The notes beneath the pieces are model-generated. The model did no database searches. It saw nothing but the letters and a program-made list of their open reading frames with translations, and was not told the DNA's origin. DNA of 32,305 nucleotides from Nemertoderma westbladi (taxonomy: Eukaryota > Animalia > Xenacoelomorpha): positions 1 through 32,305 of the forward strand of contig JAUCBJ010004785.1 of assembly GCA_032718475.1 (NCBI GenBank), read 5' to 3'. Positions 4,882-32,224 of this stretch are shown one piece after another. The translations under genes and the position numbers were made by a program. The stretch's first letter is position 1; every line of letters begins with the position of its first letter.

Positions 4882-5104
4882 GGCCGCGTTCACACTGGTA
4901 TGTTTTATATTTTTTAGTATGTTTTTTATAATAATGTTTCATATGTTTTTTATATGCTTTTTATTTTACAGTATGTTTTTACATTTTTTAGTTCTCGAAT
5001 GCTATTTGAATACTTTCATGACAAACAATATTCGAGAACTTTTGACATATGTGAGATAAAAAATATACAAAACATATAAAAAACATACCAGTGTGAATGC
5101 AGCC
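4882..5104. mobile_element. Tourist/Harbinger-type MITE (223 bp) nested in the Harbinger
   Basis: TIR GGCCGCGTTCACACTGGTATGTTTT vs reverse complement of the right end GGCTGCATTCACACTGGTATGTTTT (23/25); TAA TSD at 4879-4881 and 5105-5107. Confidence 0.9.
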
Positions 5105-5175
5105 TAAGATATACATTGCGATGTATGTATACATCACAATAACATTGTTTTAAAGTATTATAGACCTATATTACA

Positions 5176-9074: not shown

Positions 9075-11421
9075 CTGAATTGATATTAGTATTATTTATT
9101 ATAATTATATCGTAGCTAATATATGTATTATTTTCCTATACTAATTAAAATTACGGTGTGGAATGACAAAAAATACAAAATTAACCCTAAAGCCATGCAC
9201 AGTAGGGCGGTGCGTTTTTTACTTTTTTTCGATTTCATTGTTCTACCGGTGCACAAAAGTTGCCAAATGGTAAAAAAATAAGGCAAAAAAATTTCTCTAA
9301 ATTTCATCGATATCTTGACGGATCCCAAGGGGGTTGAAATTTTAAGCCTTCGCGATGCACCACAATGACATTTATAACAATATAACACATTGATGAAAGA
9401 TCAATGACTCAAGAAAGAACTTCCTGCATGCATCAAATGTCATCAAATGGGTCCCAAACTTAGTTAGAAACCAAAATTTTGATTTTTGGATCAAGGGAAC
9501 TAGTGCCACAGGCACATGGCCAGAACCTACCCTTTGGCGCAAGTGACGAGTATTCTCAATTTTCAGTATGGCCAACTTTTAGTACTCCTACTGCATTAAT
9601 AGTATGCTCATTAGAACCACAATGACCGATTTAGTGGGGGTAGACACCTTCAAAAAAAACGTAGAGCGAATAGTTCTTGAGATAACGCAGAAAATGTGAA
9701 GTCCGGCACAAGTCTACATTACCGCCTTGAAGCGATATGGGCAAATGCACTAACAATGATACTTTGAATTATCTTAAGGCATCAAAAATATACACATCAC
9801 TGCAAGAAATTGATTTAGTGTATACAGACACCTTCAAAATGAAAGAGTAGTGATTAGTTCACTATAGTTTTTGTACGAAATGTGTGGAATGGGTCAACTC
9901 AATCCCAATATCAAGTATCAATAAATTGGTGGACATAGTCTTGACATTTTGTAAAATAGCTTAAGAACTACTGACTACTCTTTATTTTGACAATTTTCAA
10001 CAACATTTTTCAACAATATCTTATCTTAAAACCATTAATATTAAAGCTTAAAATTAAACAATCATAAAGTGCCAAAAAGCTCCGTTTGCAATTAATCATA
10101 AGGTCAATTAAGCTTCATTGGCTTTTTAAGAATGATTGGTGATTCTGTATTAGTAAATCCAAGATGAGTAATAGACTTGATGCACAAACATAAAATTGTT
10201 AGGCTAGAAACAATTGAATAAGATAACAGAGTGCCCTGAATCGAGTGGCGGGGTGTGATTTTTGTAAAAACTTGAGGAATCAGTCAAAATGGCGGGTTTA
10301 AGTAAGTGCGGGAAATTAATTTTGAAAAGATTATGTGATTGGCTGCTACAGATTTAATGTCACTACAAAGTGCTCTGATAATTTTTCTATCTTGGTTTCT
10401 ATGGATAGTGTTTTTTTGATTCATTCAAATACACATTTAATCTGGATCATATCACAAATGGTTTATATCAATTGAAAGCGGGGAGTCTTTGTGCGTCTAT
10501 TGACACTACAATGAATTAAATTCATGATGAGGAACATTGATAAAAGGCTGTTTGCAAATTTGCAAACTTGATTGATTACCAGTACCTCCTACCTAACAGC
10601 CTGAGACATAACATCCTATCAGCACCTTGCATTACAGTATCTGAGTAATGCAGGTTACTTGATTACGTTGGGTACACCTACCGCTCTTATGCTACCCTTG
10701 ACAAGTACACATTTAGAATATTCCAAGTAGCTGAGTTCTGAGTACTACCAATTAGACTGACTGGTATTACAAGTTTAGTGTCATTATAAATCTAATCTGT
10801 AGGCCTTTCCGTACTCAATACAGGTAGGAACTCAGAACTAGGACGTTACTGCTAACAGGATATACAAAAGCCAACTGTGACGGGATCCCCGAGTTGGCGA
10901 GGGAATCCCGACCACTGTGTTTTGCTATTGTGTAGTACGCGTCGCCACGTCTGCTGGCTGCAGAATAACTGAGTTTTAGTTGCAGTTGTTCATAATGTCA
11001 GAATACAATAATAGCACAATCAGAATATAATAATAGCATGGTTATTGACGACGTTCTAAACTGTCTTGCTTCCACACTCTACACAAACCAACTGAACATC
11101 ATGTAATAAATGCAACAGTTATATTACTAACACATATAGAATATTGGTACTTGCTGTATGGCCTGGCCAATGGATCCATCCCAATTAGATGGTGTTCTGC
11201 CCCACCATTGGCTAACCTATCCCCCCTTCCTTTGGCACTCCCTGTTCCCTTGTATCCACATTCTAGCTCCCTTCGTCCCCCTGAGATGGCCTATAGCCTC
11301 TCATCTTTCCTTGTGGCTGGCAATGTATATTGCCTTCGTTGGTTGTTAGGTGCTCACTAGTCCCATAGGACTTATCCCCCTCTATGCTCGCTCCCCACAC
11401 TTGGACCTCGCACTCTATACT

Positions 11422-11700: not shown

Positions 11701-12556
11701 TTTTGAGTATTCCATTATATTTATAAACTATGTAAAATCATTTTGAGAAATTCACACGCAATTTGCTACACAAACACCCTATATGGGACACAAACACCCT
11801 ATATGGGACATAAAGAACCTATTTGGGACAAATTTAAATTAAAGCTATGATAGTGAATTCTATTTTATTTTGAGTATTCCATTATATTTATTAACTATGT
11901 AAAATCATTTTGAGAAAGTCACACGCAATTTGCTACATAAACACCCTATATGGGACACAAACACCCTATATGGGACATAAACAACCTATTTGGGACAAAT
12001 GTAAATTAAAGCTATGATGGTGAATTCTATTTTATTTTGAGTATTCCATTATATTTATAAACTATGTAAAATCGTTTTGAGAAAGTCACACGCTATTTGG
12101 GACACAAACACCCTATATGGGACACAAACACACTATATGGGACATAAACAACCTATTTGGAACAAATTTAAATTAAAGCAATGATAGTGAATTATATTTT
12201 CTTTTGAGTATTCCATTATATTTATAAACTATGTAAAATCATTTTGAGAAATTCACACGCTATTTGGCACTCAAACACCCTATATGGGACAAAAACAACC
12301 TATTTGGGACAAATTGAAATTAAAGCTCTGGTAGTGAATTCTATATTCTTTTGAGTCCCTTACATTTAGAAACTATTTGAAATCATTATAAGCAATACAT
12401 ACCTTATACGGGACACAAACACCCTATATGGGACAAAAACAACCTATTTGGGACAAAATTAAATTAAAGCTATAATAGTGGATTCTATCTTCTTTTGAGT
12501 ATTTCAATATATTTATAAACTATGTAAAATCATTTTGAGAAAGTCACACGCAATTT
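11701..12556. repeat. Tandem satellite-like array, 167-bp monomer with internal 20-bp subrepeats (~5.4 copies)
   Basis: The G of TTTTGAGT recurs at 11705, 11872, 12039, 12206, 12353 and 12497 (periods 167,167,167,147,144); subrepeat CACAAACACCCTATATGGGA. Confidence 0.95.
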
Positions 12557-12632
12557 TTGAGTTATTTGTACTTATGTGTCCATGCGGTGCCTTCCAGGCA
12601 CGTCGACATCACCCGCAATCAGTTCTAGAGTT

Positions 12633-15206
12633 CTATAGTGCTCCTCCCGAACCCTCCAGGAACCATATCAGTTCTTTCCCTCTATCATCATCTTGCTTCA
12701 GTCGCTTACTCCCCTCCTGTTTGCTCTTGAGGCCACTCATTCTCGCTGATACTGTCTTGCCAAGCCCCGTTGTTGGTTTCTTGGGTGCGGGCGTTATTAC
12801 TTCGTGATATCGCATCGCAGGTGGTCCCACCGAGTGTCCCTCCTGCTTCCCCCTGGTAGCATCCCACAAGATCATCTTCATCCCATGCGGCACATGTTCC
12901 ACCAGAAAATCCCTGAACTCCATCCTGTTTTCTGGTGACCATCTGTCCAGATATCTTTGGGTGTTAATGACCCCTCCATACGATGATGACCCCTCCGCTG
13001 TTGCTACCTCCTGATATGTGAATGGTACGCTGTTGCTACCTCCTGATACGTGAATGGTAGTCTCCTCTTGGTAATCTCCTGGTGGGCCTGCAGGTTAATG
13101 TTGAAAAACCCCCACCGGAACTCCTGGGCCTTTATCCTTTGCCTTGTCATGATTCCGACGTCAGCCCAATCCTCGAAGATACGGAATTTCTCCTCATCCT
13201 CCATCCAGTCACACTGGCGCTCAAAGTGCCCCCTGAACTTGCACTTCGAACACCTGTGGTGCAACCATTGGCACGCACCCATCCTATGGGTAGACTCGTG
13301 GCAATATAGACATGTCGTCCCCTTTTGGTAACAATACAGACAGTTCTTCTGCTGATGGGTCAATCTACCACAGTAGTCGCAACTGTCTATCACTGTCTCT
13401 CGCACCAAGTCGTCCTTGGCTCCGCATAGAATCCTGGGTCTATGGAACCGCTGATAGGTGAACATTTCGACCTTGTCCTCCCTATCCATGTCGATGTCCT
13501 CCTCCTCCTCCTCCCTTGGCATCATTTCCCCAAACACTACTCATGGTCCGATTCCCAGTTGCTCGCCCAGCCAAATCGTGTTCACCAGGAAATCCATCAC
13601 CCGCTCCCAGGCTCGCTTGCCAGGTGCGTCCCAGAACGCTCTCGCCCCGCTGGCTGCCAACACTCTCCCATCCACCCAGTCCGTGTCCGACTGGCTGATT
13701 CTCTCTATCGGTGGCATCTCCCTGAACTCATCCTCATCTACTTCCTCTGTCACGAGCGGCCCCAAACCCGGGATCCCGGTTGATCCACCATGTCCCTTCC
13801 CAGCCTGGCACTCACCCGCAACCCTCCACCCTTCCATCGCCCTCGGTCTCTTCCTTATGAAGTCGCCCTCAGACCCCGCAGGCATTGGCATTCCCTGCAG
13901 TCCCGATGTAGACTGCATCGGTGTCTCTTCCATCCAATCCACCTCGCCCCCCAGCCGAAACTCGCCCGAGGTCTCTGATCCCCACCTCAACTCGTCCAAA
14001 TCTTGGGCCTCAAAATCGTACTCCCCTCCCCTTATATCCGCCTCTCTACCTGCTGCATCCCTCCTCTCTCTCCTGGCGACTTCCTCTAGCCTCATTTCCT
14101 CTTCTCTATCCGCCTCGTGTTTCTTCCATTGTTTGTGCGGTGTGTCTACCTCTCTGTCCACCAGGTGTCGGGTATCGTAATACACTGATTCGCCCTTCTG
14201 CCCAGGGTGGTTTACAAGACCTGCTAGGGCTACCTTAAATGCTCCCCTGTGGTTCAGAGCTGCTCCCATTAGTAGAATCGCCGCCGGCTCCCTGCCAATA
14301 GCCACCATGATAAATAGCTTCAGTAAACCTATCATTATCCAGTCTTCCTGTAAGATATATCTCTTCTGATATATCTTTATCACTCCCTTCCGGAAGTGAT
14401 ATAACTCTTCCTTCCCTGGTCTCGCTCCCCATTTGAGTGAGTTCGCAAGCTCCGCCCCGTATTCCTCTTGGAACTTATTCCACTCCATCGGCTTGTAGCA
14501 GATGAGCCCCATCAGCTGGCCCATCGCCACAGCTCCACATTGTCCCGTGTTATCCCCAATCCCAATCCATTTGGTTTCGTCATAGCAATGTAGACTACCT
14601 GCATGTCCAGAAGTTTTGGGGTGCCCGGTCCAACAATCCTTTCCACGTCGCTGCGTATCACCGATCCAACCTTGATCGTAGTCTTCAGCCTTACTAGTTC
14701 CTGCACCGCATTCGGTAACCAGTTTAATTTCGGCCTGCTCCTCTTCCCGTAGGTCCCTAGGTCGAATAGAAGGATATCTCCTTTCGGCGCTGCTAAATGC
14801 AGCAATATAGTCCTACCCGATCCCCTTCTCGACCCTTCGTCATCCTCCACAGTCCTCACGTCGCCTAGGGTCATGTATCCGCGGAATCCATAGAATCTAC
14901 AAACCTCCTCCATTCCTTCCTTGGTGGTTCCCTTGCGTACTTCGGTATCCCGAAGGTTGCCTCGTCTCCCTTTACAACGTAATGAAGATGCTCGTTGATT
15001 GCATAGGCCATAGGTGCCGACCAGTCGTCTCTCGTGGATCTCCCTAAACTGATCTTATATTATAGCGCGTGCGCTTTCTGACTTTTCGGGAGTCATTTGT
15101 AGTATTCCCTCGTCTTATTCTCTGGATGCCTCAGCGTGAAGTCCACTAGTAACTCCTTCCCGCTTTTCTCCGACTTCCTCTTCTTCACCAGTTTCTCCGC
15201 CATCAT
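12633..15206 (-). pseudogene. Decayed intronless ORF: DnaQ/WRN-EXD-like 3'-5' exonuclease domain, acidic linker, three CCHC zinc knuckles
   Basis: Exonuclease-like: VEDDEG...TILLHLAAPKGDILLFDL...LPNAVQELV..KTTIKVGSVIRSDVERI...LLDMQ...YQKRYILQED. Knuckles: CDYCGRLTHQQKNC, CLYCHESTHRMGAC, CSKCKFRGHFERQC. Fragments are collinear; lesions are two stops near the N-terminus, frameshifts at ~14920 and ~14530, an in-frame stop at 13541 and a 32-bp duplication. Confidence 0.7.
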
Positions 15207-15700: not shown

Positions 15701-15783
15701 TTAATTAATTAATCTAATGTTTGGAATGGTGAATAGGCTTGTAAACTAGAAAGCCATGGCCCTTCAGGCCATGGGCTTTCTAG
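15701..15783 (+). mobile_element. Orphan Helitron-like 3' terminus (family A type)
   Basis: TAATGTTTGGAATGGTGAATAGGCTTGT plus hairpin and CTAG matches the 3' ends at ~17838-17905 and ~20016-20084; upstream sequence is unrelated. Confidence 0.7.
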
Positions 15784-15812
15784 TCTATCTATCTATATAT
15801 ATAAATATCATG

Positions 15813-15843
<31 letters not shown>

Positions 15844-16084
15844 TTGTTTGTCTGTCCAAGCTATACGTTTCTACACACAAGCACCAACCTGAGCTCGCGA
15901 TACATCGAACGAAAGCTCTCGTCACGAGCACGTGCACTGTCGCTATCTCGAGTCTTATTTTACGCGTTTGTTTTCGTGAATGCAGATTTCGTGAATTTGG
16001 TACCGGTAGCGCAGTAGGCCTAGCAGTTCATTCTGTCACTCTACATGTTGGGTCTCGACTATTATGCTACTTTTTGATACCAGA

Positions 16085-17580
16085 CATAATCTGTTCTAAA
16101 TGATACTTTGCAGATCTGTTCCCGACCATAGACTGTGTGTTTGGGAGGACACTGATCAATCTGCAGTTCTCCAGTCTGCCGCTAGGGGGCGAAATATCCG
16201 AAACTGAAAACATCTCCCATTTCGTTATTATTAAAGCCTTTTAGCTGATACATGGCAGAGGTCTTCTACACCATAGGCTTTGTGTTTGGGGAGGATGCTG
16301 ACCAATCTGCAATTCCCCAGTCTGCCGCTAGGGGGAGAAATATCTGAAAGTGAAAACCTTATCCCATTTCTTTGTTTATAATGATTTTTTGCTGATACTT
16401 GGCAGAGGTCTACTACACCATACAGCGTGTTTGGGGAGGAGCTAATCAGTCTGCATTTCTCCAGTCTACCGCTAGGGGGCCAAATGTCTGAAAGTGAAAA
16501 CCTTATCCCATTTCGTTATTAATAATGCTTTTAGGCTGACACTTGGCAGATGTGTATTACACCATATGGTGTGTGTCTGTGGAGGACGCCCAACTATCTG
16601 CAGTTCTCCATTCGGCCGCTAGGGGGCGAAATATCTGAAAGTGAAAACCTTATCCCATTTCGTTGTTTATAATACTTATAGGCTGGTTCTTGGCAGAGGT
16701 CTACTACACCATAGGTTGCGTGTTTGTGGAAAACTCTCACCAATCTGCAATTCCCCCGTCTGCCACTAGGGGGCCAAATGTCTGAAAGTGAAAATCTTAT
16801 CCCATTTCGTTATTAATAATGCTTTTAGGCTGACACTTGGCAGCTGTGTATTACACCATATGGTGTGTGTCTGTGGAGGACGCCCAACTACCTGGAGTTC
16901 TCCATTCGGCCGCTAGGGGGCGAAATATCTGAAAGTGAAAACCTTATCCCATTTCGTTGTTTATAATACTTATAGGCTGATACTTGGCAGAGGTCTACTA
17001 CACCATAGGCTGCGTGTTTGTGGAGAACTCTGACCAAGCTGCAATTCCTCTGTCTGCCACTAGGGGGCGCAATGTCTGAAAGTGAAAACCTTCACCCATT
17101 TCGTTATTAATAATGGTTTTATGCTGATACTTTGCAGAGGTCTTCTACACCATAGACTGTGTTTTTGTGGAGAACTCTGACCAATCTGCAATTCCTAAGT
17201 CTGCCGCTAGAGGGTGAAATGTCTGAAATGAAAACCTTCTCCAATTTCGTTGTTTCTAATGCTTTTTTTTATATTTGGGAAAGTTATACTACACCATAGG
17301 CTGTGTGTTTGGGGCGGATGCTAACCAGTCTGCAGTTCTCCAGTATACTGCTAGAGGGTGCGAAATGTCTGAAAAGTGAAAACATTCTCACATTTATTTA
17401 TTAAAAATGCATTTAGGCTGATACTTGGCAGAGGTCTACTGTTGTACTACATCATTGGCTGCGTCTTTGGGAAGGACGTTGACCAGTCTGCAGTTCTCCA
17501 GTCCGCCACTAGGGGACGAATTATCTGAAAGTTAAATCCTTCTCCCATTTAAATGCTTTAGAGTTGATTCTTGGCAGCGA
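16085..17580 (+). repeat. ~146-147-bp tandem array in A1 (~10 monomers)
   Basis: CC(G/A)CTAGGGGGC core at ~16179, 16325, 16469, 16616, 16763, 16910, 17057, 17203, with more degenerate copies at ~17349 and ~17506. Confidence 0.95.
16161..16191 (+). promoter_or_regulatory. Representative extended CTCF-like motif (repeated in nearly every array monomer)
   Basis: CTGCAGTTCT-CCAGTC-TG-CCGCTAGGGGGCG; another example CTGCAATTCC-TCTGTC-TG-CCACTAGGGGGCGC at 17039-17070. Sequence match only; binding is not shown. Confidence 0.6.
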
Positions 17581-17905
17581 TCTAAAATTACTGTACAGTA
17601 CCTACTAAATTTACGAGGATGATAACCTGCAGTTCTACAGTTTAACCTTTTTCCATATTTTTACTATTTTGTAATCCTTTGGAAATGATACTTGGTAGGC
17701 ATTTACTACAGTATATACAACAAGCCTTATGTTGTACATAGTAGTTTGTAGTAAAATAGCTTCAGTAATTTTGTTTGAGAGAACACTCAATCATGTGACG
17801 TTTTGTTAAGTTAAGTTAATTAATTAATTACAGAATTAATGTTTGGAATGGTGAATAGGCTTGTGAACTAGAAAGCCGTGGCCCGAAGGGCCACTGGCTT
17901 TCTAG

Positions 17906-20084
17906 TCTATCTATATATATAAATATCATGTGTTTGTCTGTCTGTCTGTCCAAGCTATACGTTTCTACAAACAAGCACCAATCGGAGCTCGCGATACATC
18001 GAACGAAAGCTCTCGTCACGAGCACGTGCACTGTCGCTATCTCGAGTCTTATTTTACGCATTTGTTTGCGTGAATGCAGATTTCGTGAAATTGGTACCGG
18101 TAGCACGGTAGGCCTAGCAGTTCATTCTGTCACTCTACATGTTGGGTCTCGACTATTATGCTACTTTTTGATGCGCATCTACGTGATGCAGACTGCCCCG
18201 AGCACATGGACACGAAACGTCGTTATATCGAGGCGAATTTTATGCATCATTTATGCATGAATGCGTATTTGTGGTCAAATTGGGCTATTATTCCATAACC
18301 ATTTTCAGCCAAATTTGTCAACCAGCAGGAAACTCTATAACAGCGGTTGCACCAACAGACTCAATCTGTTCTAAATGATACTTTGCAGATACGCTCCTGA
18401 CCATAGACTGTGTGTTTGGGAAGACACTGATCAATCTGGAGTTCTCCAGTCTGCTGCTAGGGGGCAAAATGTCAGAAACTGAAAACCTTCTCCCATTTCG
18501 TTATTATTAATGCCTTTTAGCTGATACGTGGCAGAGGTCTACTATACCATAGGCTGTGTGTTTTCGGAGGATGCTGACTAATCTGCCATTCCCCAGTCTG
18601 CCGCTAGGGGGAGAAATATCTGAAAGTGAAAACCTTTTCCCATTTCGTTGTTTATAATGCTTTTTTGCTGATACTTGGCAGAAGTCGACTACACCATAGA
18701 CTGCGTGTTTGTAGAGAACTCTGAATAATCTGAAATTCCTCTGTCTGCCGGTAGGGGGTGCAATGTCTGAAAGTGAAAACCTTCACCCATTTCGTTGTTT
18801 ATACTGCTTTTTTGCTGATACTTGGCAGAGGTCTACTACACCAAGACTGCGTGTTTGGGGAGGAGCTAGAACCAGTCTGCATTTATCCAGTCTACCGCTA
18901 GGGGGCCAAATATCTGAAAGTGAAAACCTTATCCAATTTCGTTATTAATAATGCTTTTAGGCTGACACTTGGCAGATGTGTATTACACCATAGGTTGTGT
19001 GTCTGGAGAGGATGCCGAACAACCTGCAGTTCTCTATTCGGCCGCTAGGGGGCGAAATGTCTGAACGTGAAAACCTAGCAGCTTATCCCATTTTGATGTT
19101 TATAATGTTTTTAGGCTGATACTTGTCAGAGGTCTACTACATCAAAGACTGCGTGTTTGTGGAGAACTAAGACCAATCTGCAATAGCTCTGTCTGCCGCT
19201 CGGGGCGCAATGTCTGAAAGTGAAAACTTTTATGCATTTCATTGTTTATAATGCTTTTTTGCTGATAGTTGGCAGAGGTCTACTACACCATAGACTAATT
19301 GTTTGGGGAGGAGATAGAACCAGTCTGCATTTATCCAGTCTACCGCTTGGGGGCCAAATGTCTGAAAGTGAAAACCTTATCCCATTTCGTTATTAATATG
19401 ATTTCAGGCTGACACTTGCCAGATGTGTAGTACACCATAGGGTGTGTGTCTAGGTAAGACGCCGAACAAACTGCAGTTCTCCATTCGGCCGGTAGGGGGT
19501 GAAATGTCTGAAAGTGAAAACCTTATCCCGTTTCGTTGTTTCTAATACTTTTAGGCTGATACTTGTCAGAGGTCTACTACACCATAGACTGCGTGTTTGT
19601 GGAAAACTCTGACCAATCTGCAATTTCTCAGTCTGCCGCTAGAGGGTGAAATGTCTCAAGTGAAATCCTTTTCCCATTTCGTTGTTTCTAATGCTTTGTT
19701 GCTTATACTTGGGAAAGGCATGCTTGACCATAGGCTGTTTGTATGGGGAGGATGCTAACCAGTCTGTGGATTTCCAGTCTACTGCTAGGGTGCGAAAAAT
19801 CTGAATCTGAAAAGTAAAAACATTCTCACATTTATTTATTAAAAATGCTTTACGCTGATAATTGTCAGAGGTCTACTGTACTACATCATAAGGCTGCTGC
19901 ATCTATGCGAATGACGTTGACCAGTGTAGATATCTGAAAAGTAAAACAGCATCAGTCCTTTTGTTTGAGAGAACACTCTCAGTCATATGAAGTTTTGTTA
20001 AGATAATTAATTAATTAATGTTTGGAATGGTGAATAGGCTTGTGAACTAGAAAGCCGTGGCCCAAAGGGCCACTGGCTTTCTAG
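17906..20084 (+). mobile_element. Non-autonomous Helitron-like element A2 with ~10-monomer array (~18360-19930)
   Basis: Near-identical 5' region to A1 (AAGCTATACGTTTCTAC...GGTACCGGTAGC...), same array type, 3' hairpin and CTAG at 20046-20084. Confidence 0.8.
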
Positions 20085-20114
20085 TCTATCTTATCTAATA
20101 TATATAAATCTCGA

Positions 20115-20186
<72 letters not shown>

Positions 20187-22366
20187 GTGTTTGTCATCGG
20201 CTATACAATCGAACCCATCTCGATGAAATCTCGCTTGCTATATCTCGTTAGAAAGGTCTCGCCCTAACTCGTTGCAACGTAATACTCAGAGCCGTCTGAG
20301 GTTCGCCCGTCTGCCGCTAGAGGGCGATTTTCGTGATTTTCGGGCGAAATTTATCGAATTATTTCGGTTCTTCTATCGGTAATTAATGATTTAGAGGGCT
20401 AACATTTATCCCACCTGGTATAAAATTAACATGGGTAGATTCGCCGTGTCCCATTCTCACAAAGTTTTTATTTTATTCGAGTGTTTAATATAAATATGTA
20501 TGATTATTTATTGATTAAAAATCAAATAGTGTATAAATATGTCATATTCGCCAAGCACGATCGAATTGGCCTATTGCTATTGAATAGGGAAGGATTGTTT
20601 TCTGTATCATAGCAACGTTAAGGTAATTATTGAACTCGCAGCTAGCTGGCTGGGCACAGATAAGGAGCAAGCAGGCTGGAGTGTTGATTGGGGTGGGTTT
20701 GGGTTGTCTATTGCTAATTGCTCAGAGTAATTCTGCTTTTTCAATCATTGGCTGCAGGGAAGGACAGGTTTATAACATTTTTGTTTTACTGTTATGAATA
20801 TTAAAAGGAAAATAATTATTTCTGTAGGCCTATACTTACAGTACTGTATTATTATTTTATCTAATAGTATACATCTAATCTCGATGAAATCTCGCTTACT
20901 ATAGCTCGTTAGATAGGTCTCGCCCTAAGTCGTTGCAACGTAATACTCAGAGCCGTCTGAAGTTCCCCCGTCTGCCGCTAGAGGGCGAATTGTCCGATAG
21001 TGAAAACCTGATCTTATTGGGTTGTTTTTAATGCTTTTGAGCTGAAACTTGGTAGCTATATACTGCAGCATAGGCTGTATTATTTCCGGAGTCACTGGGT
21101 TGTCTACAGTTCCCCAGTCTACCGTTAGAGGGCTAAATGTCTGAGAGTTAACATCTTCTCCAACTTTGTTATTTACAATCCGTTTAGACTGAAACTTGGT
21201 AGGCATCTACTACAGCATAGACTGTATCTTTACAGAGTAGCAGAGTCGTCTACAATTCCCCGGTCTACCGCTAGAGGGCGAAATGTCTGAAAGTTAACAT
21301 CTTCTCCAACTTTGTTATTTATAATCCATTTAGACTGAACTTGGTAGGCATCTACTACAGCATAGGCTATATCTTTACTGAGTCGCGCAGAGTTGTCTAC
21401 AGTACCCGCGTCTGCCGCTAGAGGGCGAAATGTATGAAAGTTAACATCTTCTCCAACTTTGTTATTTACAATCCTTTTAGACTGAAACTTGGTAGGCATC
21501 TACTATAGCATAGGCTATATCTTTGCGGAGTAGTAGAGTTGTTTACAGTTCCACAGTCAGCCGCAAGAGGGCGAATTGTCTGATAGTGAAAACCTCATCC
21601 CATTTGGTTCTTTTTAATCATTTTGAGCTGAAACTTGGTTGGTATCTACTACATCATAGGCTCTATCTTTACGGAGTTGCAGAGTCCTATACACTTCCCC
21701 GGTCTACCGCTAGAGGGTGAAATGTCTGAAAGTTAACATCTTCTCCAACTTTGTTATTTACAAACGGTTTAGACTGAAACTTGGTAGGCATCTACTACAG
21801 CATAGGCTCTACATTTACTGAGTCGCAGAGTTGTATACAGTTCCCCTATCTGCCGCTAGAGGGCGAATTGTCTGTTAGTGAACACCTCATCCCAATTGGT
21901 TCTTTTTAATCCCTTTGAGCTGGAACTTGGCAGGAATCTACTACAGCATATTCTGTATCTTTACGGAGTCCCAGAGTCGTCTACAGTTCTTCAGTCTACC
22001 GCTAGAGGGTGAAATGTCTGAATGTGAACATCTACACCAATTTTGTTATTTACAATCTGTTTAAGCTGAAACTTGAAAGGCAGGCATTTTACTTCACCAT
22101 AAACCCCATCTTTACCAAACTGCAGCGTCGTCTGCATTTCACCAGTCCGCAGGTAGAGGGTGGATCTGAAAGTGATAATTTTCTGGAAATTTTGTTATTT
22201 ACAATCTGCCTAAAGTTGAAACTTGACAGTTATCTCTTATGGGGGTGGTGTTTTATTTAATGATGGTGTCTGTTCCGTATGCAGTTCTCCAATCTCCCAC
22301 ACATATTCATATATAATCTGCACGTGCACTAGAAAGCTGTGGCCCGAAGGGCCACAGGCTTTCTAG
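20085..22366 (+). mobile_element. Non-autonomous Helitron-like element B1 with ~146-bp array (~20900-22230)
   Basis: 5' TCTATCTTATCTAATATATATAAATCTCG plus (TGTC)n; a distinct body; CCGCTAGAGGGCG-type cores at ~20975, 21122, 21268, 21415, 21561, 21707, 21853, 21999; 3' hairpin 22328-22366. Confidence 0.8.
20116..20186. repeat. (TGTC)n microsatellite, ~17 copies
   Basis: Seen directly; shorter versions sit at the 5' end of the other units. Confidence 0.95.
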
Positions 22367-25002
22367 TCTAATATATATAAATATGCATTGTCTGTCTGTC
22401 TGTCTGTTTGTCATCAGCTATACAATCGAACCCATCTCGATGAAATCTCGCTTACTATAGCTCGTTAGAAAGGTCTCGCCCTAACTCGTTGCAACGTAAT
22501 ACTCAGACCCGTCTGAAGTTCCCCGTCTGCCGCTAGAGGGCGATTTTCGTGATTTTCGGGCGAAATTTATCGAATTATTTCGGTTCTTCTATCGGTAATT
22601 AATGATTTAGAGGGCTAACATTTATCCCACCTGGTATAAAATTAACATGGGTAGATTCGCCGTGTCCCATTCTCACAAAGTTTTTATTTTATTCGAGTGT
22701 TTAATATAAATATGTATGATTATTTATTGATTAAAAATCAAATAGTGTATAAATATGTCATATTCGCCAAGCACGATCGAATGGGCCTATAGTTATTGAA
22801 TAGGGAAGGATTGTTTTCTGTATCATAGCAACGTTAAGGTAATTATTGAACTCGCAGCTAGATGGCTGGGCACAGATAAGGAGCAACCAGGCTGGAGTGT
22901 TGATTGGGGTGGGTTTGGGTTGTCTGTTGCGAATTGCTCAGAGTAATTCTGCTTTCTCAATCATTGGCTGCATGGAAGGAGAGGTTTATAACATTTTTGT
23001 TTTACTGTTATGAATATTAAAAGTAAAATAATTATTTCTGTAGGCCTATATTATTTTATCTAATATTATACATCTAATCTCGATGAAATCTCGCTTACTA
23101 TAGCTCGTTAGATGGGTCTCGCCCTAACTCGTTGCAACGTAATACTCAGAGCCGTCTGAAGTTCCACCGTCTGCCGCTAGAGGGCGAATTATCCGATAGT
23201 GAAAACCTGATCTTATAGGGTTGTTTTTAATGCTTTTGAGCTGAAACGTGGTAGCTATATACTGCAGCATAGGCTGTATATTTCCGGAGTCACTGGGTTG
23301 TCTACAGTTCCCCAGTCTACCGTTAGAGGGCTAAATGTCTGAGAGTTAACATCTTCTCCAACTTTATTATTTACAATCCGTTTTGACTGAAACTTGGTAG
23401 GCATCTACTACAGCATAGGCTGAATCTTTACTGAGTCGCAGAGTCGTCTACAATTTCCCAGTCTACCGCTAGAGGGCGAAATGTCTGCAAGTTAACATCT
23501 TCTCCAACTTTGTTATTTATAATCCATTTAGACTGAACTTGATAGGCATCTACTACAGCATAGGCTATATCTTTACTGAGTCGCGCAGAGTTGTCTACAG
23601 TACCCAAGTCTGCCGCTAGAGGGCGAAATGTATGAAAGTTAACATCTTCTCAAACTTTGTTATTTACAAACCTTTTAGACTGAAACTTGGTAGGCATCTA
23701 CTATAGCATAGGCTATCTTTGCGGAGTAGTAGAGTCGTCTACAGTTCCACAGTCAGCAGCAAGAGGGCGAATTGTCTGATAGTGAAAACCTCATCCCATT
23801 TGGTTCTTTTTAATCCTTTTGAGCTGAAACTTGGCAGGTATCTACTACATCCTAGGCTCTATCTTTACGGAGTTGCAGAGTCCTATACACTTCCGCAGTC
23901 TACCGCTAGAGGGTGAAATGTCTGAAAGTTACCATCTTCTCCAACTTTGTTATTTATAATCCATTTAGACTGAACTTGGTAGGCATCTACTACAGCATAG
24001 GCTATATCTTTACTGAGTCGCGCAGAGTTGTCTACATTACCCGCGTCTGCCGCTAGAGGGCGAAATGTATGAAAGTTAACATCTCCTCCAACTTTGTTAT
24101 TTACAATCCTTTTAGACTGAAACTTGGTAGATATCTACTATAGCATAGGCTATATCTTTGTGGAGTAGTAGAGTCGTCTACAGTTCCACAGTCAGCCGCT
24201 AGAGGGGGAATTGTCTGATAGTGAAAACCTCATCCCATTTGGTTCTTTTTAATCCTTTTGAGCTGAAACTTGGCAGGTATCTACTACATCATAGGCTGTA
24301 TCTTTACGGAGTTGCAGAGTCCTATACACTTCCCCAGTCTACCGCTAGAGGGTGAAATGTCTGAAAGTTAACATCTTCTCCAACTTTGTTATTTACTAAC
24401 GGTTTAGACTGAAACTTGGTAGGCATCTACTACAACATAGGCTGTACCTTTACGGATTCGCAGAGTTGTATACAGTCCCCCCTTTTGACGCTAGAGGGCG
24501 AAATATCTGATAGTGAACACCTCATCCCATTTGGTTCTTTTTAATCCTATTGAGCTGGAACTTGGCAGGAATCTACTACAGCATATTCTGTATCTTTACG
24601 GAGTCCTAGAGTCGTCTACAGTTCTTCAGTCTATCGCTAGAGGGTGAAATGTTTGAATATGAACATCTACACCAATTTTGTTATTTACAATCTGTTTAAG
24701 CTGAAACTTGAAAGGCAGGCATTTTACTTCACCATAAACCCCATCTTTACCAAACTGCAGCGCCGTCTGCATTTTACCAGTCCGCAGGTAGAGGGTGGAT
24801 CTGAAAGTGATCATTTTCTGGAAATTTTGTTATTTACAATCTGCCTAAAGTTGAAACTTGACAGTTATCTCTTATGGGGGGTGGTGTTTTATTTAATGAT
24901 GGTGTCTGTTCCGTATGCAGTTCTAAAATCTTCCACACATATTCATATATCATCTGCACGTGCACTAGAAAGCTGTGGCCCGAAGGGCCACAGGCTTTCT
25001 AG
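22367..25002 (+). mobile_element. Non-autonomous Helitron-like element B2 (array ~3 monomers longer than B1)
   Basis: Collinear and highly similar to B1; 3' hairpin 24964-25002. Confidence 0.8.
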
Positions 25003-26050
25003 TATATATATAAATCTCGATTGTCTGTCAGTCAGTCAGTCTGTATGTTTGTCATCGGCTATACAATCGAACCCATCTCGATGAAATCTCGCTTGCTATA
25101 GCTCGTTAGAAAGGTCTCGCCCTAACTCGTTGCAACGTAATACTCAGATCCGTCTGAAGTTCACCCGTCTGCCGCTAGAGGGCGATTTTCGTGATTTTCG
25201 GGCAAAATTTATCGAATTATTTTCGGTTCTTCTATCGGTAATTAATGATTTAGAGGGCTAACATTTATCCCACCTGGTATAAAATTAACATGAGTAGATT
25301 CGCCGTGTCCCATTCTCACAAAGTTTTTATTTTATTCGAGTGTTTAATATAAATATGTATGATTATTTATTGATTAAAAATCAAATAGTGTATAAATATG
25401 TCATATTCGACACGCAGGATCGAATTGGCCTATTGTTAGTGAATAGGGAAGGATTGTTTTCTGTATCATAGCAACGTTAAGGTAATTATTGAACTCACAG
25501 CTAGCTGGCTGGGCACAGATAAGGAGCAAGCCAGGCTGGAGTGTTGATTGGGGTGGGTTTGGGTTGTCTGTTGCAAACTGCTCAAGAGTAATTCTGCTTT
25601 CTCAATCATTGGCTGCATGGAAGGAGAGGTTTATAACATTTTTGTTTTACTGTTATGAATATTAAAAGTAAAATAATTATTTCTGTAGGCCTATACCTAC
25701 TGTATTATTATTTTATCTAATATTATACATCTAATCTCGATGAAATCTCGCTTACTATAACTCGTTAGATAGGTCTCGCCCTAACTCGTTGCAACTTAAT
25801 ACTCAGATCCGTCTGAAGTTCCCCCGTCTGCCGCTAGATGGCGAATTGTCCGATGGTGAAAACCTGATCTCATTGGGTTGTTTTTAATGCTTTTGAGCTG
25901 AAACTTTGTAGCTATATACTGCAGCATAGGCTGTATATTTCTGGAGTCACTGAGTTGTCTACAATTCCCCAGTCTACCGTTAGAAGGCTAAATGTCTGAG
26001 AGTTAACATCTTCTCCAACTTTGTTATTTACATTCCGTTTAGACTGAAAC
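25003..26050 (+). mobile_element. 3'-truncated Helitron-like element B3
   Basis: B-type 5' body and two array monomers, then an abrupt switch at AGACTGAAAC|TATATATATAAATATCATG to an A-type 5' end with no hairpin. Confidence 0.75.
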
Positions 26051-26358
26051 TATATATATAAATATCATGTGTCTGTTTGTCTAAGCTATACGTTTCTACA
26101 CACAAGCACCAATCAGAGCTCGCGATACATCGAACAAAAGCTCTCATCATATGCACGTGCACTGTCGCTATCTCGAGTCTTATTTTACGCGTTTGTTTGC
26201 GTGAATGCGAATTTCGTGAATACGGTACCGGTAGCGCGGTAGGCCTAACAGTTCATTCTGTCACTCTACACATTGGGTATCGACTATTATGCTACTTTAT
26301 GATGCGCATCTACGTGATGCAGACTGCCCCGAGCACATGGACGTGAAACGTGGTTATA

Positions 26359-29300
26359 CTACTACTACTACTAGGTCGAGCAAACTCGGACAGTGGAAAT
26401 GAGATCCTTCCAGGCTTCCCGATTCTCCATAGTTGTCGCAATTTCGTTTCTCCCAAGTTCAGTATCCCTTTCAAGTTGATCTATATATGTTATGGCCGGT
26501 CGTCCACGACTACACTTTCCATGAGTTGGTTGCCAGAGAAGTAGATCTGGTATGACCTTCGCCAGCAGTGCCCACTGAATCTTAATCTGCGTTCACGGAG
26601 GGTGGTTGATACAGGTGGTATTGTACCATAAAGCTCGGCGTTTGTCATATGTTGTCTCCAGCTGATGTTTAGGGCTGCCCTTAGTAGTCTTGTGTAGCAA
26701 CCATCAATTCGTTGTTCAAGTGATTTAGTCAGTGTCCAGGTCTCACCCCCGTATAAAAATACACTTTCCACTGTGGCTCGAAAGAACTTAGTCTTCAGGT
26801 GCCTGGAGAGATCTGATTTCCAGATGGTATCCATTTTTGATAGAGCTACCCAAGCCTTTGCTTTCCTAACTTCTATGTCCTTCTTGCTACTCTCTATCCA
26901 TGATCCAAGGTACTGGAAGTCATCGACCTTCCTTAGTTGATTATTATCAATGGTTGTCAAGTTCCCATCAACATTAAAGGTCATGAATTCGGTCTTTGTA
27001 GCATTTATATGCAATCCAACCTCCTTAGCTGCCCTCTCCACTTTATTTAGTAGAAGCTGTGCATCTGCTAGCGTATTAGAGAGCAGGGCGATGTCATCCG
27101 CAAAGTCGGTGTCTGTGACTGTAGTTGCCGGATATCTACTACTTCTGTGTTCTTGAAGTGTGAATCCCAGATCTTCACCCTTTGTGGCCGTCCTCATTGC
27201 GTAATCCAGCACAATTACAAATAGTAATGGTGCTAATGTGTCACCTTGCAGTACGCCAGCCAGGATAGAGAAAAACTCAGTTTCACCATCTGGTGAGAGT
27301 ACCTGCACTTCTGTGTCACAATATAACAATCCAATGCCAGCAACAATTACTTCTGGTATTCCATAAGCTCTTAGGATTTCAAGCATTTTACCTCTATGGA
27401 TGGAGTCGAATGCCTTCTTGAAGTCCACAAAAGTCATGACTGCGGGGAGATTCTTTGACTTAATTCCTTCAATCAGTCTCCGTAGTGCAAGTATCTGAGC
27501 TATTGTTGATCTACTTGGTCGAAATCCGTTTTGGCTCTTACGCAGTAGTTTCTCTATTTGAGGCCTAATCCTATATAGAATCATTTTATTGTATATTTTA
27601 GCAGCTACCACAAGCAGACAGATCCCACGATAGTTTGTTGGTATGCCGAGGTCTCCTTTCTTGGGGAGAGGCTTTAGTCCAAATTGGTGGTGGCTTGTCC
27701 CCTTTTAACATCCGGTTGCAAGCAAACATTCAATAATGGTCTGTTTAGCACTCCTGTTTTCCATAACTCCGCTGGGATTTCATCTAATCCACTTACTTTA
27801 TTATTGGACATGCTTTTAATGCTTCTTTGGAGTTCGGCAGGTGTGAAGTCCCCTGTTTCTATAGGTAGTGTCTTGTCATATATTTTCCTTGTAGGGCTGA
27901 CCTCGATGTTTGGTGGCAGCCCAAGCAAGTTGCTGAAGTGATTTTTCCACTTCCCAACATGTTCTTCAGGACTATCGGCTTTGAGGAGCCCCTTTGCACA
28001 ACTTTTCCGACCAGATTTACAGTTTGCCAGGTAAGTCTTGATTGTTGCTGTATGTGAGCAGTTGTAATTGCTTCAGTTTTATCCTGTATGTACTTTTCCT
28101 GGCTGATGTTGTAGGCCAATTTAAGATCGTCCTTAGCTTTCTCAACCTTGTTAATGTTTTCAGTTGTTGGTTGTTCGGTTTTAACTTTGTAGGCTATCTT
28201 AAGATCTTCTCTCTTACAAGTAACCTCAGAGTTTTGCCATGGCACATACTGTTTTCGTTTGGGTTTCTGGGGGATATGCCTCTTAGCTGATTCCTTGTGG
28301 GCTGTTATTATATTCTGGTATATTGAATCGGTGGATTGGTCTTCATCAATTGACTGAAGTGCTTCAAAGCGGTTTTGAACTTCTACTGTATAAGCATCCT
28401 TTACAGCATTGTCAGTTCTGAGTTTCTCCCAGTCATATTTGATTTGCTTGCTTGTCCTGGGTTTGCTGGCTCTCAAACTGAGTCTTATCTCTGCAGTCAC
28501 AATTCTGTGGTCCGAACCGATTAGGTTGAACGAGCTGTATGCCTCGCAGTTGACCATGCTGTTTCTCCACTTTTTGTTTATAAGGATGTAATCCAGTTGT
28601 GCTTTGGTTCCATTGGGGTATGGAAAGGTCCATAGCTTCCCCTTACTCTTTTCGAATGTGTTGTTTGTTGGTATCAATTCACATTATTCCATTAGGTCTA
28701 AAAGTAAGTACCCATTTCTGTTAGAACTGGTGTTATAGGTATATAACCCTTGATGTCTTCTGGGCCAATTTGCGCATTCAGGTCACCAGCAATGACTTTA
28801 ACATTGTGTCTCGGAATGTCCTTTATAAGTCCAGTCAGTTCTTCATAAAACTTGACTGCTTGTTCTGACTCTGAGGCATTGGTTGGACTGTAGCAACATA
28901 TAACTGTTGCCTTGGGATTCCCATCAAATGTTGTGATCATAACCCTGGAATTTATAGATTCGATGTTGTTTAGGGTCTTAAGTGCAAATGGGCTTAGCAG
29001 AATTCCTACTCCACCAATTGATGCATTGGCCGAGTTTCTTACTGCTGAGCTTGTTACTAACGTCCATCCATTTCCAATGTCATTGTACTTCATGGCAGTG
29101 TCTTCATGATAAATCCGATGTTCTTGGATGCAGATGATGTCGATGTTATATTCCATTGCCAGAGCGACCATGTCACCCTGTTTGGTATGTGCTTTCAGCG
29201 TGCATGCGTTCATTGTCGCAATCTTTAGTGTCTTTTTACATTTCAACAGGTTGGTTCTTCTTTCTTCTCTGTCTTCTGTTCCAGTAGCCAATTTATCGAC

Positions 29301-29887
29301 CCCAGCCTGGTGTACCACTGAGGGATGCGGTCCTTGTTGGCCCGGGCGACGACCAAGCTGGTAGTTCTCCTGGAGGGTTCTCATACTCATATCTTTCAGT
29401 TGCGGGAGTAAACCGCTTGTGGTCGCAACTCCTACAAGCGTCTTCGCAGTAGGTCGCCATTGGTTGATTACCTTCCGCCGACCTTGTCAGCATGTCTAGC
29501 CGTTGGTTGATTACCTTCCGCCTATCCATGGCCTACAGCCCTGCTGCCGACTGTAAGGGTCCTTTTGTTACACCCTGAACCAAGTGTGCCTCCTGGGTTA
29601 GGTAACCTAACAATGGTAGAGGAGCATCCAGTATAGACAGGGCGGGGTGTGTATCATTTCTAATGCAGATGCGTATCAAGCCTTTGCCTTCAATGGTGCC
29701 CTAGGCGCTATAGCCATCAATGACTTATTTAGTTGACGGGGCTGAACCAACCCACTCTTGATCAACTAAATAATGAATAGGCTATGCTTATGGGGCCTGC
29801 CCTACTGGGCTGACAGGTACAGGTAGTACCACATTACTGCCATAGTGGTAGCAGGATCTGGGGACCTGACCTGACACTTCGGCCCAC
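26359..29887 (-). mobile_element. RTE-clade non-LTR retrotransposon, apparently full length (3529 bp)
   Basis: 13-bp TSD AAACGTGGTTATA at 26346-26358 and 29888-29900; (TAG)5 3' tail; single APE+RT coding region; ~500-bp 5' leader. Confidence 0.93.
26400..29390 (-). pseudogene. RTE ORF: AP-like endonuclease plus reverse transcriptase, several frameshifts
   Basis: APE: KIATMNACTL, DIICIQEHR, GGVGILLS, CYSPT, AGDLNAQIG, QLDYILI, SDHRIV. RT: QNGFRPSRST, FVDFKKAFDSIHR, GVLQGDTLAPLLF, DFADDIALL, FQYLGS. Split over ORFs 28698-29390, 27859-28677, 27674-27928 and 26490-27611. Confidence 0.93.
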
Positions 29888-31359
29888 AAACGTGGTTATA
29901 TCGAGGCAAATTTTATGCATAATTTATGTGTGAAAGCGTATTTGTGGTCAAGTTGGGCTATAACCATTTTCGGCTAAATTACTGGTCAACCAGCAGGAAA
30001 CTCTATAATAGCGGTTGCACCACCAGACTTAATCTGTTCTAAATGATAATTTGCAGATCTGTTCCCGACCATAGACTGTGTGTTTGGGAGGACACTGATC
30101 AATCTGCAGTTCTCTGGTCTGCCGCTAGGGTGCGAAATGTACGAAACTGAATATACCTCTCCCATTTCGTTGTTTATAATGCTTTTTTGCTGATACTTGC
30201 CAGAGAGAGGTCTGCTACACCATAGACTGCGTGTTTGTGGATAACTCTGAGCAATCTGCAATTCCTCTGTCTGCCACTAGGGTCCAAATGTCTGAAAGTG
30301 AAAACCTTATCCCATTTCGTTATTAATAATGCTTTTAGGCTGATACTTGGCAGAGGTCTACTACATCATTGACTGCGTGTTTGGGGAGGAGCTAAAACCA
30401 GTCTGCATTTATCCAGTCTACCGCTAGGGGGCCCAATGTCTGAAAGTGAAAACCTTATCCCATTTCGTTATTAATATGCTTTTAGGCTGACACTTGGCAA
30501 ATGTGTATTGCACCATAGGGTGTGTGTCTGGGGAGGATGCCGAACAAACTGCAGTTCTCCATTCGGCCGCTAGGGGGCGAAATGTCTGAAAGTGAAAACC
30601 CTCTCCCATTTCGATGTTTATAATGCTTTTAGGCTGATGCTTGGCAGAGGTCTACTACACCATAGACTGCGTGTTTGTGGAGAACTCTGACCAATCTGCA
30701 ATTTCTCAGTCTGCCGCTAGAGGGTTAAATCTCTCAAGTGAAATCCTTCTCCCATTTCGTTGTTTCTAATGCTTTTTTGCTTATACTTGGGAAAGGTATA
30801 CTTGACCATAGGCTGTGTGTTTGGGGAGAACGCTAACCAATCTGCAGTTCTCTAATCTACTGCCAGGGTGCGAAATGTCTGAAAAGTGCAAACATTCTCA
30901 CATTGATTTATTAAAAATGCTTTTAGGCTGATAATTGTCAGAGGTCTACTGTACTACAGTATGTACATCATAAGGCTACCTTTGTGAAGGAGGTTGAGCA
31001 GTCCGCAGTTCTCCAGTCCGCCACTAGGGGACGAATTGTCTGAAAGTGAAATCCTCCCATTTTGATTCTTGGCAGCGATCTAAAAGTACCTACTAAACTA
31101 AATAAACTATACAGTAGGTTGTGTTTACGAGGATGGTAACGACCTGCAGTTCTACAGTTTAACCTTCTTCCATATTTTTAATTTGTAATCCTTTGGAAGT
31201 GATATTTGGCAGGTATATACCACAACCTGAGCCTTATATTACGTTGTACTTAGGGGAAATTCGACGCAAATAACAGCTGATTACTCTCAAAAATAAAACT
31301 GGAACCTGTTCTATTGTGTTAGTTTATTGTTTTGTTAGTTATATAGCTAATATATTATT

Positions 31360-32224
31360 ATATAGCTTGTTAGAAAGGTCTCGCCCAAACTCGTTGCAAA
31401 GTAATACTCAGCTGTCTGAAGTTCCACCGTCTGCCGCTAGAGGGCGAATTGTCCGATAGTGAAAACCTGATATCATTTGGTTCTTTTTAATGCTTTGGTA
31501 GCTATCTACTACACCATAGGCTGTATGTTTACGGAGTCGCAGTGTCTTCTAGAATTCCCCAGTCTACCGCTAGAGGGCAAAATGTTTGGAAGTGAACATA
31601 TTCTTCAACTTTGTTATTTAAAATCAGTTTAGACTGAAACTTCATAGGCATCTACTACAGCATAGGCTGTATCTTTACGGAGTCACAGAATCATCACAGT
31701 TCCCCAGTCTAATTGGGGGATGAAATGTCTGAAAGAGGAAACCTACAATTTTGTTCTTTATGAATGTTTTTTTGCTGATACTTTGCACTTGGCAGAGGAC
31801 TACTACAGCACAGTCTTCGTGTTTGGGGAGGACGCTAACCAGTGCAGAATTATGCAGTTGCCAGTAGGAGTTTCTGCTGTGACCTGTTGCACTATAGGTT
31901 GTGTTTGCGAGGATGCTAACCACTACTCTGCAGTTATGCAGTTTTCCACTAAGGGGAAAATATCACACACAGTTAAAACCTTTTCCCATTTTATTATTTG
32001 TAATCCATTGGATGTGTTACTTGGTAGGTATCTACTACAATATAAAGCCTTATGTTTATTATTGTATGTAGCTGCAACTAAAACGGAATCAGTCTGATAG
32101 TCTTGTGTAAAGTTTTGTTAAGTGAATTAATTTATTTATTTATGTTTGATATTGTCCATTTATTGATTGACTGTATATAGCTTGTGAACTAGAAAGCCGT
32201 GGCCGAAGGCCACGGGCTTTCTAG
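31360..32224 (+). mobile_element. Diverged or chimeric Helitron-like 3' portion (B-like then A-like monomers, terminal hairpin)
   Basis: B module TTAGAAAGGTCTCGCCC at ~31369, cores at ~31434 and ~31567, degenerate monomers, A-like GCTTGTGAACTAG and hairpin 32188-32224 ending CTAG|T. Confidence 0.65.

What the first reader, a model, noticed from the sequence alone, without database searches (positions are those of the whole stretch)
16085..31960. Helitron-borne arrays of ~50 co-oriented extended CTCF motifs at ~146-147-bp spacing: a candidate mobile insulator/loop-anchor cassette
Seen: almost every monomer in both array families contains CT(G/A)CA(G/A)TTC(C/T)-N6-T(G/A)-CC(G/A)CTAG(G/A)GGGC(G), always on the + strand, with a period of mostly 146-147 bp (roughly 50-55 sites by hand count, some degenerate). 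The motif and its spacer are kept between families A and B, while much of the rest of the monomer differs. Known: the CTCF core consensus is CCASYAGRKGGC (JASPAR MA0139), and vertebrate CTCF ZF9-11 read an upstream TGCAG/TGCAA..CC module 5-6 bp away. Clustered same-orientation sites act as strong directional barriers to cohesin extrusion, and 147 bp is the nucleosome core length. Inference: these rolling-circle elements may disperse pre-built polar CTCF arrays, or exploit CTCF to shield themselves from silencing. Helitrons with central satellite arrays are known; I do not recall a description of a bipartite CTCF site per monomer.
Basis: partly seen in the sequence, partly recalled or inferred. 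Interest (0 to 1): 0.88.

Follow-up and report, generated by a model that had tools for sequence, protein, structure and literature searches.

The report
Helitron satellite carrying CTCF-like sites
A chain of rolling-circle transposons in an unidentified animal carries ~146-base repeats whose units mostly hold a motif like the docking site of the genome-organising protein CTCF, likely kept because it helps the transposon rather than to anchor host chromatin loops; binding is untested.

Summary
The region is a chain of seven non-autonomous Helitrons, each with an internal ~146-bp array: 59 units, all on the + strand. The CTCF-like core is real with a recalled human matrix (43 sites, p≤1e-4) but much weaker with a published zebrafish matrix (12). 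The vertebrate-type upstream module and 5-bp linker are good in family A (TGCA in 21 of 27) and degenerate in family B (2 of 24). After matching base composition the core is conserved (p≈0.005), only in variants shared between copies, but two other boxes are conserved about as well and the upstream module is not. An unrelated Helentron-type family in metagenomes carries the same core at 144–148 bp, without the module. The host and its CTCF are unknown; no genome is held. Published work finds no CTCF loop-extrusion barrier in invertebrates, so the loop anchor is unlikely. Helitron satellites and transposon-spread CTCF sites are each known; my searches found no paper on the combination. This scan earlier noted tandem CTCF minisatellites in sharks and an annelid.

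The parts
15701..15783 (+). 3' end remnant of a further Helitron (H0): hairpin ending in CTAG
15784..17905 (+). Non-autonomous Helitron H1, family A: TC start, TA-rich tract, (TGTC)n, 10 monomers (16120-17578), 3' hairpin + CTAG
17906..20084 (+). Helitron H2, family A, 10 monomers (18399-19870)
20085..22366 (+). Helitron H3, family B, 9 monomers (20940-22229) plus one short motif-bearing copy at 20279-20327
22367..25002 (+). Helitron H4, family B, 12 monomers (23140-24864) plus short copy at 22496-22543
25003..26051 (+). Helitron H5, family B, cut off at its 3' side; 2 monomers plus short copy at 25137-25185
26050..31250 (+). Helitron H6, family A, interrupted by a LINE; 8 monomer hits (30064-31213); right end approximate, no terminal hairpin found
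26358..29887 (-). Broken non-LTR retrotransposon (endonuclease + reverse transcriptase) inserted in H6, 12-bp target duplication at 26346-26357 and 29888-29899; not part of the array
31361..32224 (+). Helitron H7, B-type start grading into divergent units, 5 monomer hits, 3' hairpin + CTAG
16161..16194 (+). Example two-part CTCF-like site: 10-bp upstream module, 5-bp linker, core CCGCTAGGGGGCG
   Evidence: geometry compared with PMC12885311

Best explanation
These are non-autonomous Helitrons with internal ~146-bp satellite arrays whose unit holds a CTCF-like site that is likely bound by host CTCF and likely kept because it benefits the element. Shown: the element anatomy, the motif, its fixed geometry, and depletion of shared variants in the core. 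Inferred: an ancestral unit captured or evolved a two-part CTCF site and was amplified in tandem; elements whose cores stayed intact spread better, most plausibly because bound CTCF keeps the element open or locally shielded from silencing and so available to a RepHel transposase acting in trans; after insertion each copy decays neutrally. The period of about 14 helical turns (147/10.5) would put bound proteins on one face of the helix and leaves no room for a nucleosome between adjacent bound sites. Any insulator effect on the host would be a by-product, not a cohesin loop anchor.
For: Helitron ends: TC...hairpin-CTAG at six 3' ends, matching the definition in PMC4067079. Core plus module by chance in 1 of 20000 shuffles. 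Family A module matches the zebrafish upstream matrix at p<=1e-3 in 19 of 25 units. Geometry (10 + 5 + 3 + core) equals that of the EMSA-proven IL3 +2.9 site, and the 12-bp core of the chicken HS4 probe occurs 8 times. Composition-matched conservation of the core: p=0.005 overall, 0.009 in A, 0.004 in B; depleted in shared variants (p=0.0013) but not singletons (p=0.40). Contigs from four runs pile up 16155-16195, about 45-fold over 16215-16254 in X1, and 47, 53 and 39 contigs in X1-X3 start matching at 16160 with varied flanks; three X3 contigs keep module and core with another linker. An unrelated Helentron-type family has the same core at 144-148 bp in 172 of 204 matches; the same pattern hits 1 stretch in prokaryote genomes and 0 in viral contigs.
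Against: Host CTCF not shown; no genome and host phylum unresolved. Raw conservation is not significant (3.25 vs 4.05 steps, p=0.14), and conservation does not track matrix information content (rho -0.21, p=0.40). The module is not conserved beyond background (p=0.40; 0.71 in A) and is degenerate in B. Two other boxes are about equally conserved (p=0.004 and 0.014). The zebrafish core matrix scores the sites poorly. The 3'-terminal C that 10.64898/2026.10.19.759930 says may be critical for invertebrate CTCF is A in 47 of 53 units by my alignment to the motif. The upstream module is reported absent in Drosophila and maybe vertebrate-only. The depth peak is largely family B aligning there (A at 16186 in 275108 of 308957 depth). 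The metagenome family was selected by the motif, has TGCA in 0 of 387 units, and its unselected units show no extra core conservation (p=0.84).
Confidence: 0.48

Rival explanations
1. The core is one of several conserved boxes read by another protein (the element's own RepHel, which acts at CTAG ends, or another host zinc-finger protein); the CTCF likeness is partly coincidental.
For: Core holds CTAG, the Helitron terminal word; two other boxes are about as conserved; conserved segments in otherwise dissimilar Helitron monomers are known in oyster; weak zebrafish-matrix scores; host CTCF unknown.
Against: Does not explain a 9-of-9 best-class upstream module at the common vertebrate spacing in family A. 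No hairpin precedes the internal CTAG as a terminator would need: mean z +0.61 in A, 0 of 27 below -2; -0.17 in B, 4 of 21 on either strand.
Confidence: 0.26
2. A CTCF site was captured once from host DNA and is now a neutral passenger; apparent conservation comes from uneven homogenisation among units.
For: Module decays in B and is not conserved in A; raw test not significant; units are related by duplication, so columns and copies are not independent; singleton changes are not depleted.
Against: Shared variants are depleted in a G/C-rich core where matched columns change most; the core CpG is kept in 39 of 53 units against 12-25 of 53 for four other CpGs; a separate family has the same core and period.
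Confidence: 0.18
3. The arrays act for the host as polar cohesin barriers or loop anchors spread by transposition.
For: Many same-strand strong motifs; the upstream module is needed for enhancer blocking at human IL3; transposons spread CTCF sites in lamprey and zebrafish.
Against: Invertebrate CTCF shows no loop anchoring or orientation bias in the papers read; copies show no singleton depletion; the locus is a transposon pile with a LINE insertion; CpG o/e 0.64-0.65 and the gene content argue against a vertebrate host (inference).
Confidence: 0.08

Closest known systems
Helitron/Helentron elements with central satellite arrays in Pacific oyster (Cg_HINE, Cg170/HindIII; PMC7492417 and PMC8268682, passages read)
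   Same: Non-autonomous rolling-circle element; 4-bp GTCY-type microsatellite near the left end; short array of nucleosome-scale monomers; conserved segments shared by dissimilar monomers.
   Different: Oyster monomers are mostly 160-180 bp; 'CTCF' occurs 0 times in either main text; the window elements have canonical TC/CTAG ends rather than subTIRs.
Caenorhabditis Helitrons carrying heat-shock elements (PMC6927752, abstract and passages)
   Same: Helitron carries repeated host transcription-factor sites; authors speculate selfish co-option first.
   Different: HSF-1, binding and gene effects shown; here CTCF-like, nothing measured.
Transposon-spread CTCF sites in lamprey (hAT-Tip100, LTR) and zebrafish (TDR13B and other non-autonomous DNA transposons) (PMC5504073 passages; PMC7182764 passages and supplement passages)
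   Same: CTCF motifs, including two-part sites, multiplied by mobile elements.
   Different: Vertebrates, ChIP-proven; no Helitron named in the passages seen ('helitron' 0 times in the zebrafish PDF supplement); no per-unit tandem array described in what I read.
Helitron-minisatellite PATC insulators of C. elegans (10.64898/2026.08.08.743475, abstract and passages)
   Same: Helitron tandem repeats proposed to shield chromatin from silencing, possibly for the element's own persistence.
   Different: Mechanical 10-bp periodicity in a species without CTCF, not a protein motif.
Two-part vertebrate CTCF site (ZF3-7 core, ZF9-11 upstream; PMC12885311 and PMC10484683, passages)
   Same: Family A has the module, the common 5-bp linker and a CTAG-type core like IL3 +2.9 and chicken HS4.
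   Different: Here ~10 per element in a likely invertebrate; module degenerate in B; binding untested.

Membership tests
Canonical non-autonomous Helitron | 5' TC end | tested here: met
   TC follows CTAG at 15784, 17906, 20085, 22367; H5 starts TA, H6/H7 starts uncertain
Canonical non-autonomous Helitron | 3' CTRR with nearby hairpin | tested here: met
   Six ends with hairpin and CTAG, about -19 to -20 kcal/mol for the two folded; the stem runs out to the CTAG itself
Canonical non-autonomous Helitron | Insertion between A and T without duplication | tested here: inconclusive
   T follows all six CTAG ends; TA-rich junctions fit nested A|T insertions, but no empty site was compared
Canonical non-autonomous Helitron | Autonomous RepHel partner with shared ends | not testable with these tools
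   No genome held; no RepHel among the window ORFs scanned; an unchecked note reports a Helitron-like transposase elsewhere in this genome
Two-part CTCF binding site | Core motif read by ZF3-7 | tested here: inconclusive
   38 of 53 units pass p<=1e-4 with a recalled human matrix; 8 of 25 A and 0 of 22 B with the zebrafish matrix
Two-part CTCF binding site | Upstream module at 5-6 bp linker (family A) | tested here: met
   19 of 25 A units at p<=1e-3; distance 17 in 52 of 53 units
Two-part CTCF binding site | Upstream module (family B) | tested here: not met
   TGCA in 2 of 24; p<=1e-3 in 2 of 22, p<=1e-2 in 18 of 22
Two-part CTCF binding site | Host encodes CTCF with ZF9-11 intact | not testable with these tools
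   No genome; host phylum unresolved; echinoderms and hemichordates have lost fingers
Two-part CTCF binding site | CTCF occupancy | not testable with these tools
   Only contig-level DNA runs available
Cohesin loop anchor / CTCF super-anchor | Clustered same-orientation motifs | tested here: met
   43 + vs 2 -, though from one amplified unit
Cohesin loop anchor / CTCF super-anchor | Orientation-dependent cohesin stalling and insulation | not testable with these tools
   No Hi-C or RAD21 data; literature argues against in invertebrates
HINE (metagenome family M, not the window) | subTIR pair, inner inverted copy and terminal stem-loop | tested here: inconclusive
   subTIR-like word in 12 of 28 left and 10 of 28 right flanks, hairpin in 11 of 28 left flanks; contigs are short, no whole element or empty site checked

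The most novel reading that the evidence does not exclude
Separate rolling-circle transposon lineages in invertebrates have each built helically phased arrays of CTCF sites as a selfish anti-silencing device, and family A shows that an invertebrate CTCF reads the two-part (ZF9-11) site so far described mainly for vertebrates.
Probability: 0.25. Interest if true: 0.8.

Novelty: new variant of a known kind. Interest (0 to 1): 0.55.

Why it matters
If CTCF binds here, a high-copy transposon would be a major sink and distributor of CTCF in an animal where CTCF probably does not anchor loops. That gives a natural test of what invertebrate CTCF does, and of whether reading of the upstream module is older than vertebrates. 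It would also give a function for the conserved boxes long noted in Helitron central repeats. If it does not bind, this is an ordinary Helitron-borne satellite.

Tried and rejected
Host identification failed: no genome; the LamG-like exon found nothing in two word-index searches and 7 hits at 26-34% identity in the HMMER library, three named (two lancelet, one hemichordate); the LINE protein hits listed carried no organism names; run organisms are coded. No RNA holder listed. A family-specific DNA pattern found nothing in metagenome contigs. No Rfam match. Internal hairpin-plus-CTAG terminator reading rejected (the alignment folds returned no structure at all, so I rely on the per-unit z-scores). 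Homology between the window monomer and metagenome family M rejected outside the core: best 9.6 bits, none at E<1e-3, and no link with the core masked. L074 (65% GC) is probably a non-animal repeat and was set aside. The split of changes into inner and tip branches by likelihood was not obtained; singleton versus shared counts stand in for it. The zebrafish spreadsheet supplement was irrelevant. Scan-note look-ups for this element, or for CTCF in this genome, were empty.
Full report
WHAT IS THERE. The window is animal-type DNA; no genome is held. From 15701 to 32224 lies a chain of non-autonomous rolling-circle elements. Six 3' ends carry a long hairpin ending in CTAG followed by T (15783, 17905, 20084, 22366, 25002, 32224), and four are followed directly by a TC start, a TA-rich tract and a (TGTC)n microsatellite. 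This fits the canonical Helitron ends given in PMC4067079 (passages). Seven elements can be told apart: H1, H2, H6 of family A; H3, H4, H5 of family B; H7 mixed. H6 is split by a broken LINE at 26358-29887 with a 12-bp target duplication. The TA-rich junctions look like repeated insertion into the 5' end of a neighbour (inference). A profile search finds 59 monomer-like units, all on +; 29 of 49 short intervals are 146-147 bp and 41 of 49 are 144-148 bp. I aligned 53 of the 59; three short copies upstream of the B arrays and three partial or weak units were left out.

THE MOTIF. With a JASPAR MA0139.1 matrix recalled from memory, 43 + strand sites reach p<=1e-4 in 16085-31960, against 2 on - and 9 in the rest of the window; 38 of 53 units pass. 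PMC12885311 (passages) describes a CTGCAGTTCC-like module, most often 5 bp from a 3-bp lead-in to the core. Family A has this layout, the same as that paper's EMSA-proven IL3 +2.9 probe read on its other strand, and the 12-bp core of its chicken HS4 probe occurs 8 times in the window. The module-to-core distance is 17 in 52 of 53 units; 1 of 31 indel sites falls in that span, which alone is not striking. Shuffling the A majority sequence gave core plus TGCA in 1 of 20000. Against this: the zebrafish core matrix from the supplement of PMC7182764 gives 12 + and 12 - sites in the region and 20 outside at p<=1e-4, and 1 + site passes its threshold. The zebrafish upstream matrix fits 19 of 25 A units but 2 of 22 B units at p<=1e-3 (5 gapped units dropped). 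TGCA is in 21 of 27 A and 2 of 24 B units. The base after GGGCG is A in 47 of 53, whereas section 7 of 10.64898/2026.10.19.759930 says a terminal C may be critical for invertebrate CTCF; placing that C is my own alignment.

IS IT CONSERVED? Parsimony steps in the 12-bp core are not significantly fewer than elsewhere (3.25 vs 4.05, p=0.14). But G and C columns outside the motif change about twice as often as A and T columns, and against base-matched columns the core is conserved (p=0.005; A 0.009, B 0.004). The deficit lies in variants shared by two or more units (p=0.0013), not singletons (p=0.40). That is the pattern of constraint on the spreading lineage with neutral decay after insertion (inference; units are related, so the p-values are rough). 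The core CpG survives in 39 of 53 units, four other CpGs in 12-25. The upstream module is not conserved beyond background (p=0.40; 0.71 within A), and two other boxes are about as conserved as the core (p=0.004 and 0.014).

ELSEWHERE IN THE SAME ORGANISM. Three runs hold part of the stretch; one may be the window's own sample. Laying four runs on two A units at 80% likeness gives a sharp pile-up at 16155-16195, about 45 times the depth at 16215-16254 in X1, with the same shape in X2, X3 and X5. Much of that is the more abundant family B, which matches A best there (275108 of 308957 depth reads A at 16186), so it is not independent of the A-B comparison. Still, 47, 53 and 39 contigs in X1-X3 begin to match at 16160, the module's edge, with varied flanks, and three X3 contigs keep module and core with a different linker. 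Summed depth is no copy number; dividing by single-copy pieces of depth 9-14 suggests very roughly 10^4 motif-bearing units.

OTHER ORGANISMS. A pattern asking only for two cores 140-170 bp apart found 127 stretches (123 loci) in 7 of 64 parts of the metagenome collection, about 1200 estimated in all, against 1 in prokaryote genomes and 0 in viral contigs. 119 of 123 loci are one family (M) that does not align with the window monomer outside the core. Its period is 144-148 in 172 of 204 matches, its flanks carry subTIR-like words and a stem-loop suggestive of a Helentron-type element with the motif in the opposite sense, and it lacks the module (0 of 387). The core is identical in all four subfamily majorities at K=4, but the loci were chosen by that motif, and 473 unselected units show no extra core conservation (p=0.84, a test biased against it). 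Four single loci have periods 147, 157, 164 and 166. So a second lineage with the same core and period exists, but enrichment over control motifs is untested and its host was not determined.

HOST. Unresolved. The only host gene seen is a LamG-repeat gene with 26-34% hits, three of them named lancelet or hemichordate. CpG o/e is 0.65, which by general knowledge is unlike a vertebrate. An unchecked scan note calls the host an unidentified fast-evolving animal. CTCF is bilaterian-specific (PMC7535936, passages), so a non-bilaterian host would refute the CTCF reading; the two-part match itself argues for a CTCF-bearing lineage.

MECHANISM. Most likely (0.48) the unit holds a real CTCF site kept by selection on the element: occupied arrays would stay open or unsilenced and remain substrates for a transposase in trans. 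The 146-147 bp period equals about 14 helical turns and is too short for a nucleosome between bound sites; a motif-free repeat at 11701-12556 also shows 147/167-bp periods, so the length is not special to CTCF. The loop-anchor reading gets 0.08: two 2026 preprints (abstracts, passages, one results section each) and PMC13317027 (passages) find no CTCF-dependent loop extrusion or orientation bias outside vertebrates. A box read by another protein (0.26) and a neutral passenger (0.18) remain live. An internal hairpin-CTAG terminator was tested and not supported.

PRIOR WORK AND NOVELTY. Helitron-borne central satellites, Helitron-borne transcription-factor sites, transposon-spread CTCF sites and Helitron minisatellites as barriers are all published. 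Seven full-text searches (listings seen, some truncated to the top 15-30) showed no paper on CTCF motifs in Helitron central repeats; subscription journals are not covered and preprint supplements were closed and may bear on this. The scan's own notes list 23 tandem CTCF-motif findings; of the 8 shown, most are short shark-type minisatellites and one is a two-part site in an annelid; these are unchecked AI notes. Verdict: a real, moderately supported new variant of a known kind; interest 0.55.

Noticed in passing
window 12550-15200 (- strand): Multi-copy element (deep contig cover) with broken ORFs: a Cys/His-rich zinc-knuckle-like frame (13004-13540, weak zf-CCHC_4, E=0.008) and a frame (14512-15054) whose nearest Atlas clusters (score 0.93) carry DNA_pol_A_exo1 in 17-40% of members. 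Possibly a mobile element with a 3'-5' exonuclease.
   Followed up: partly
window 4562-7831: Harbinger-type transposon: 28-bp terminal inverted repeats, DDE_Tnp_4 transposase on + and Myb/SANT protein on -, both broken.
   Followed up: partly
window 2474-3150 and 8407-9075 (- strand): Two paralogous exons, 73% identical as protein, of a LamG-like repeat gene with only distant relatives.
   Followed up: partly
window 11701-12556: Second satellite with 167- and 147-bp periods built on a 20-bp subrepeat, high-copy in the runs and without a CTCF-like hit.
   Followed up: no
window monomer columns 128-139 (e.g. near 16537) and family M: A GCTGAAACTTG-type box is conserved in the window monomers, and family M has a similar GTTGAAATT box at a different distance from the core; it may be a second shared protein site.
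   Followed up: no
L063, L088, L122: Three further unrelated repeats with tandem CTCF-like cores at 147, 166 and 157 bp; L063 looks like a Helentron-type element.
   Followed up: partly
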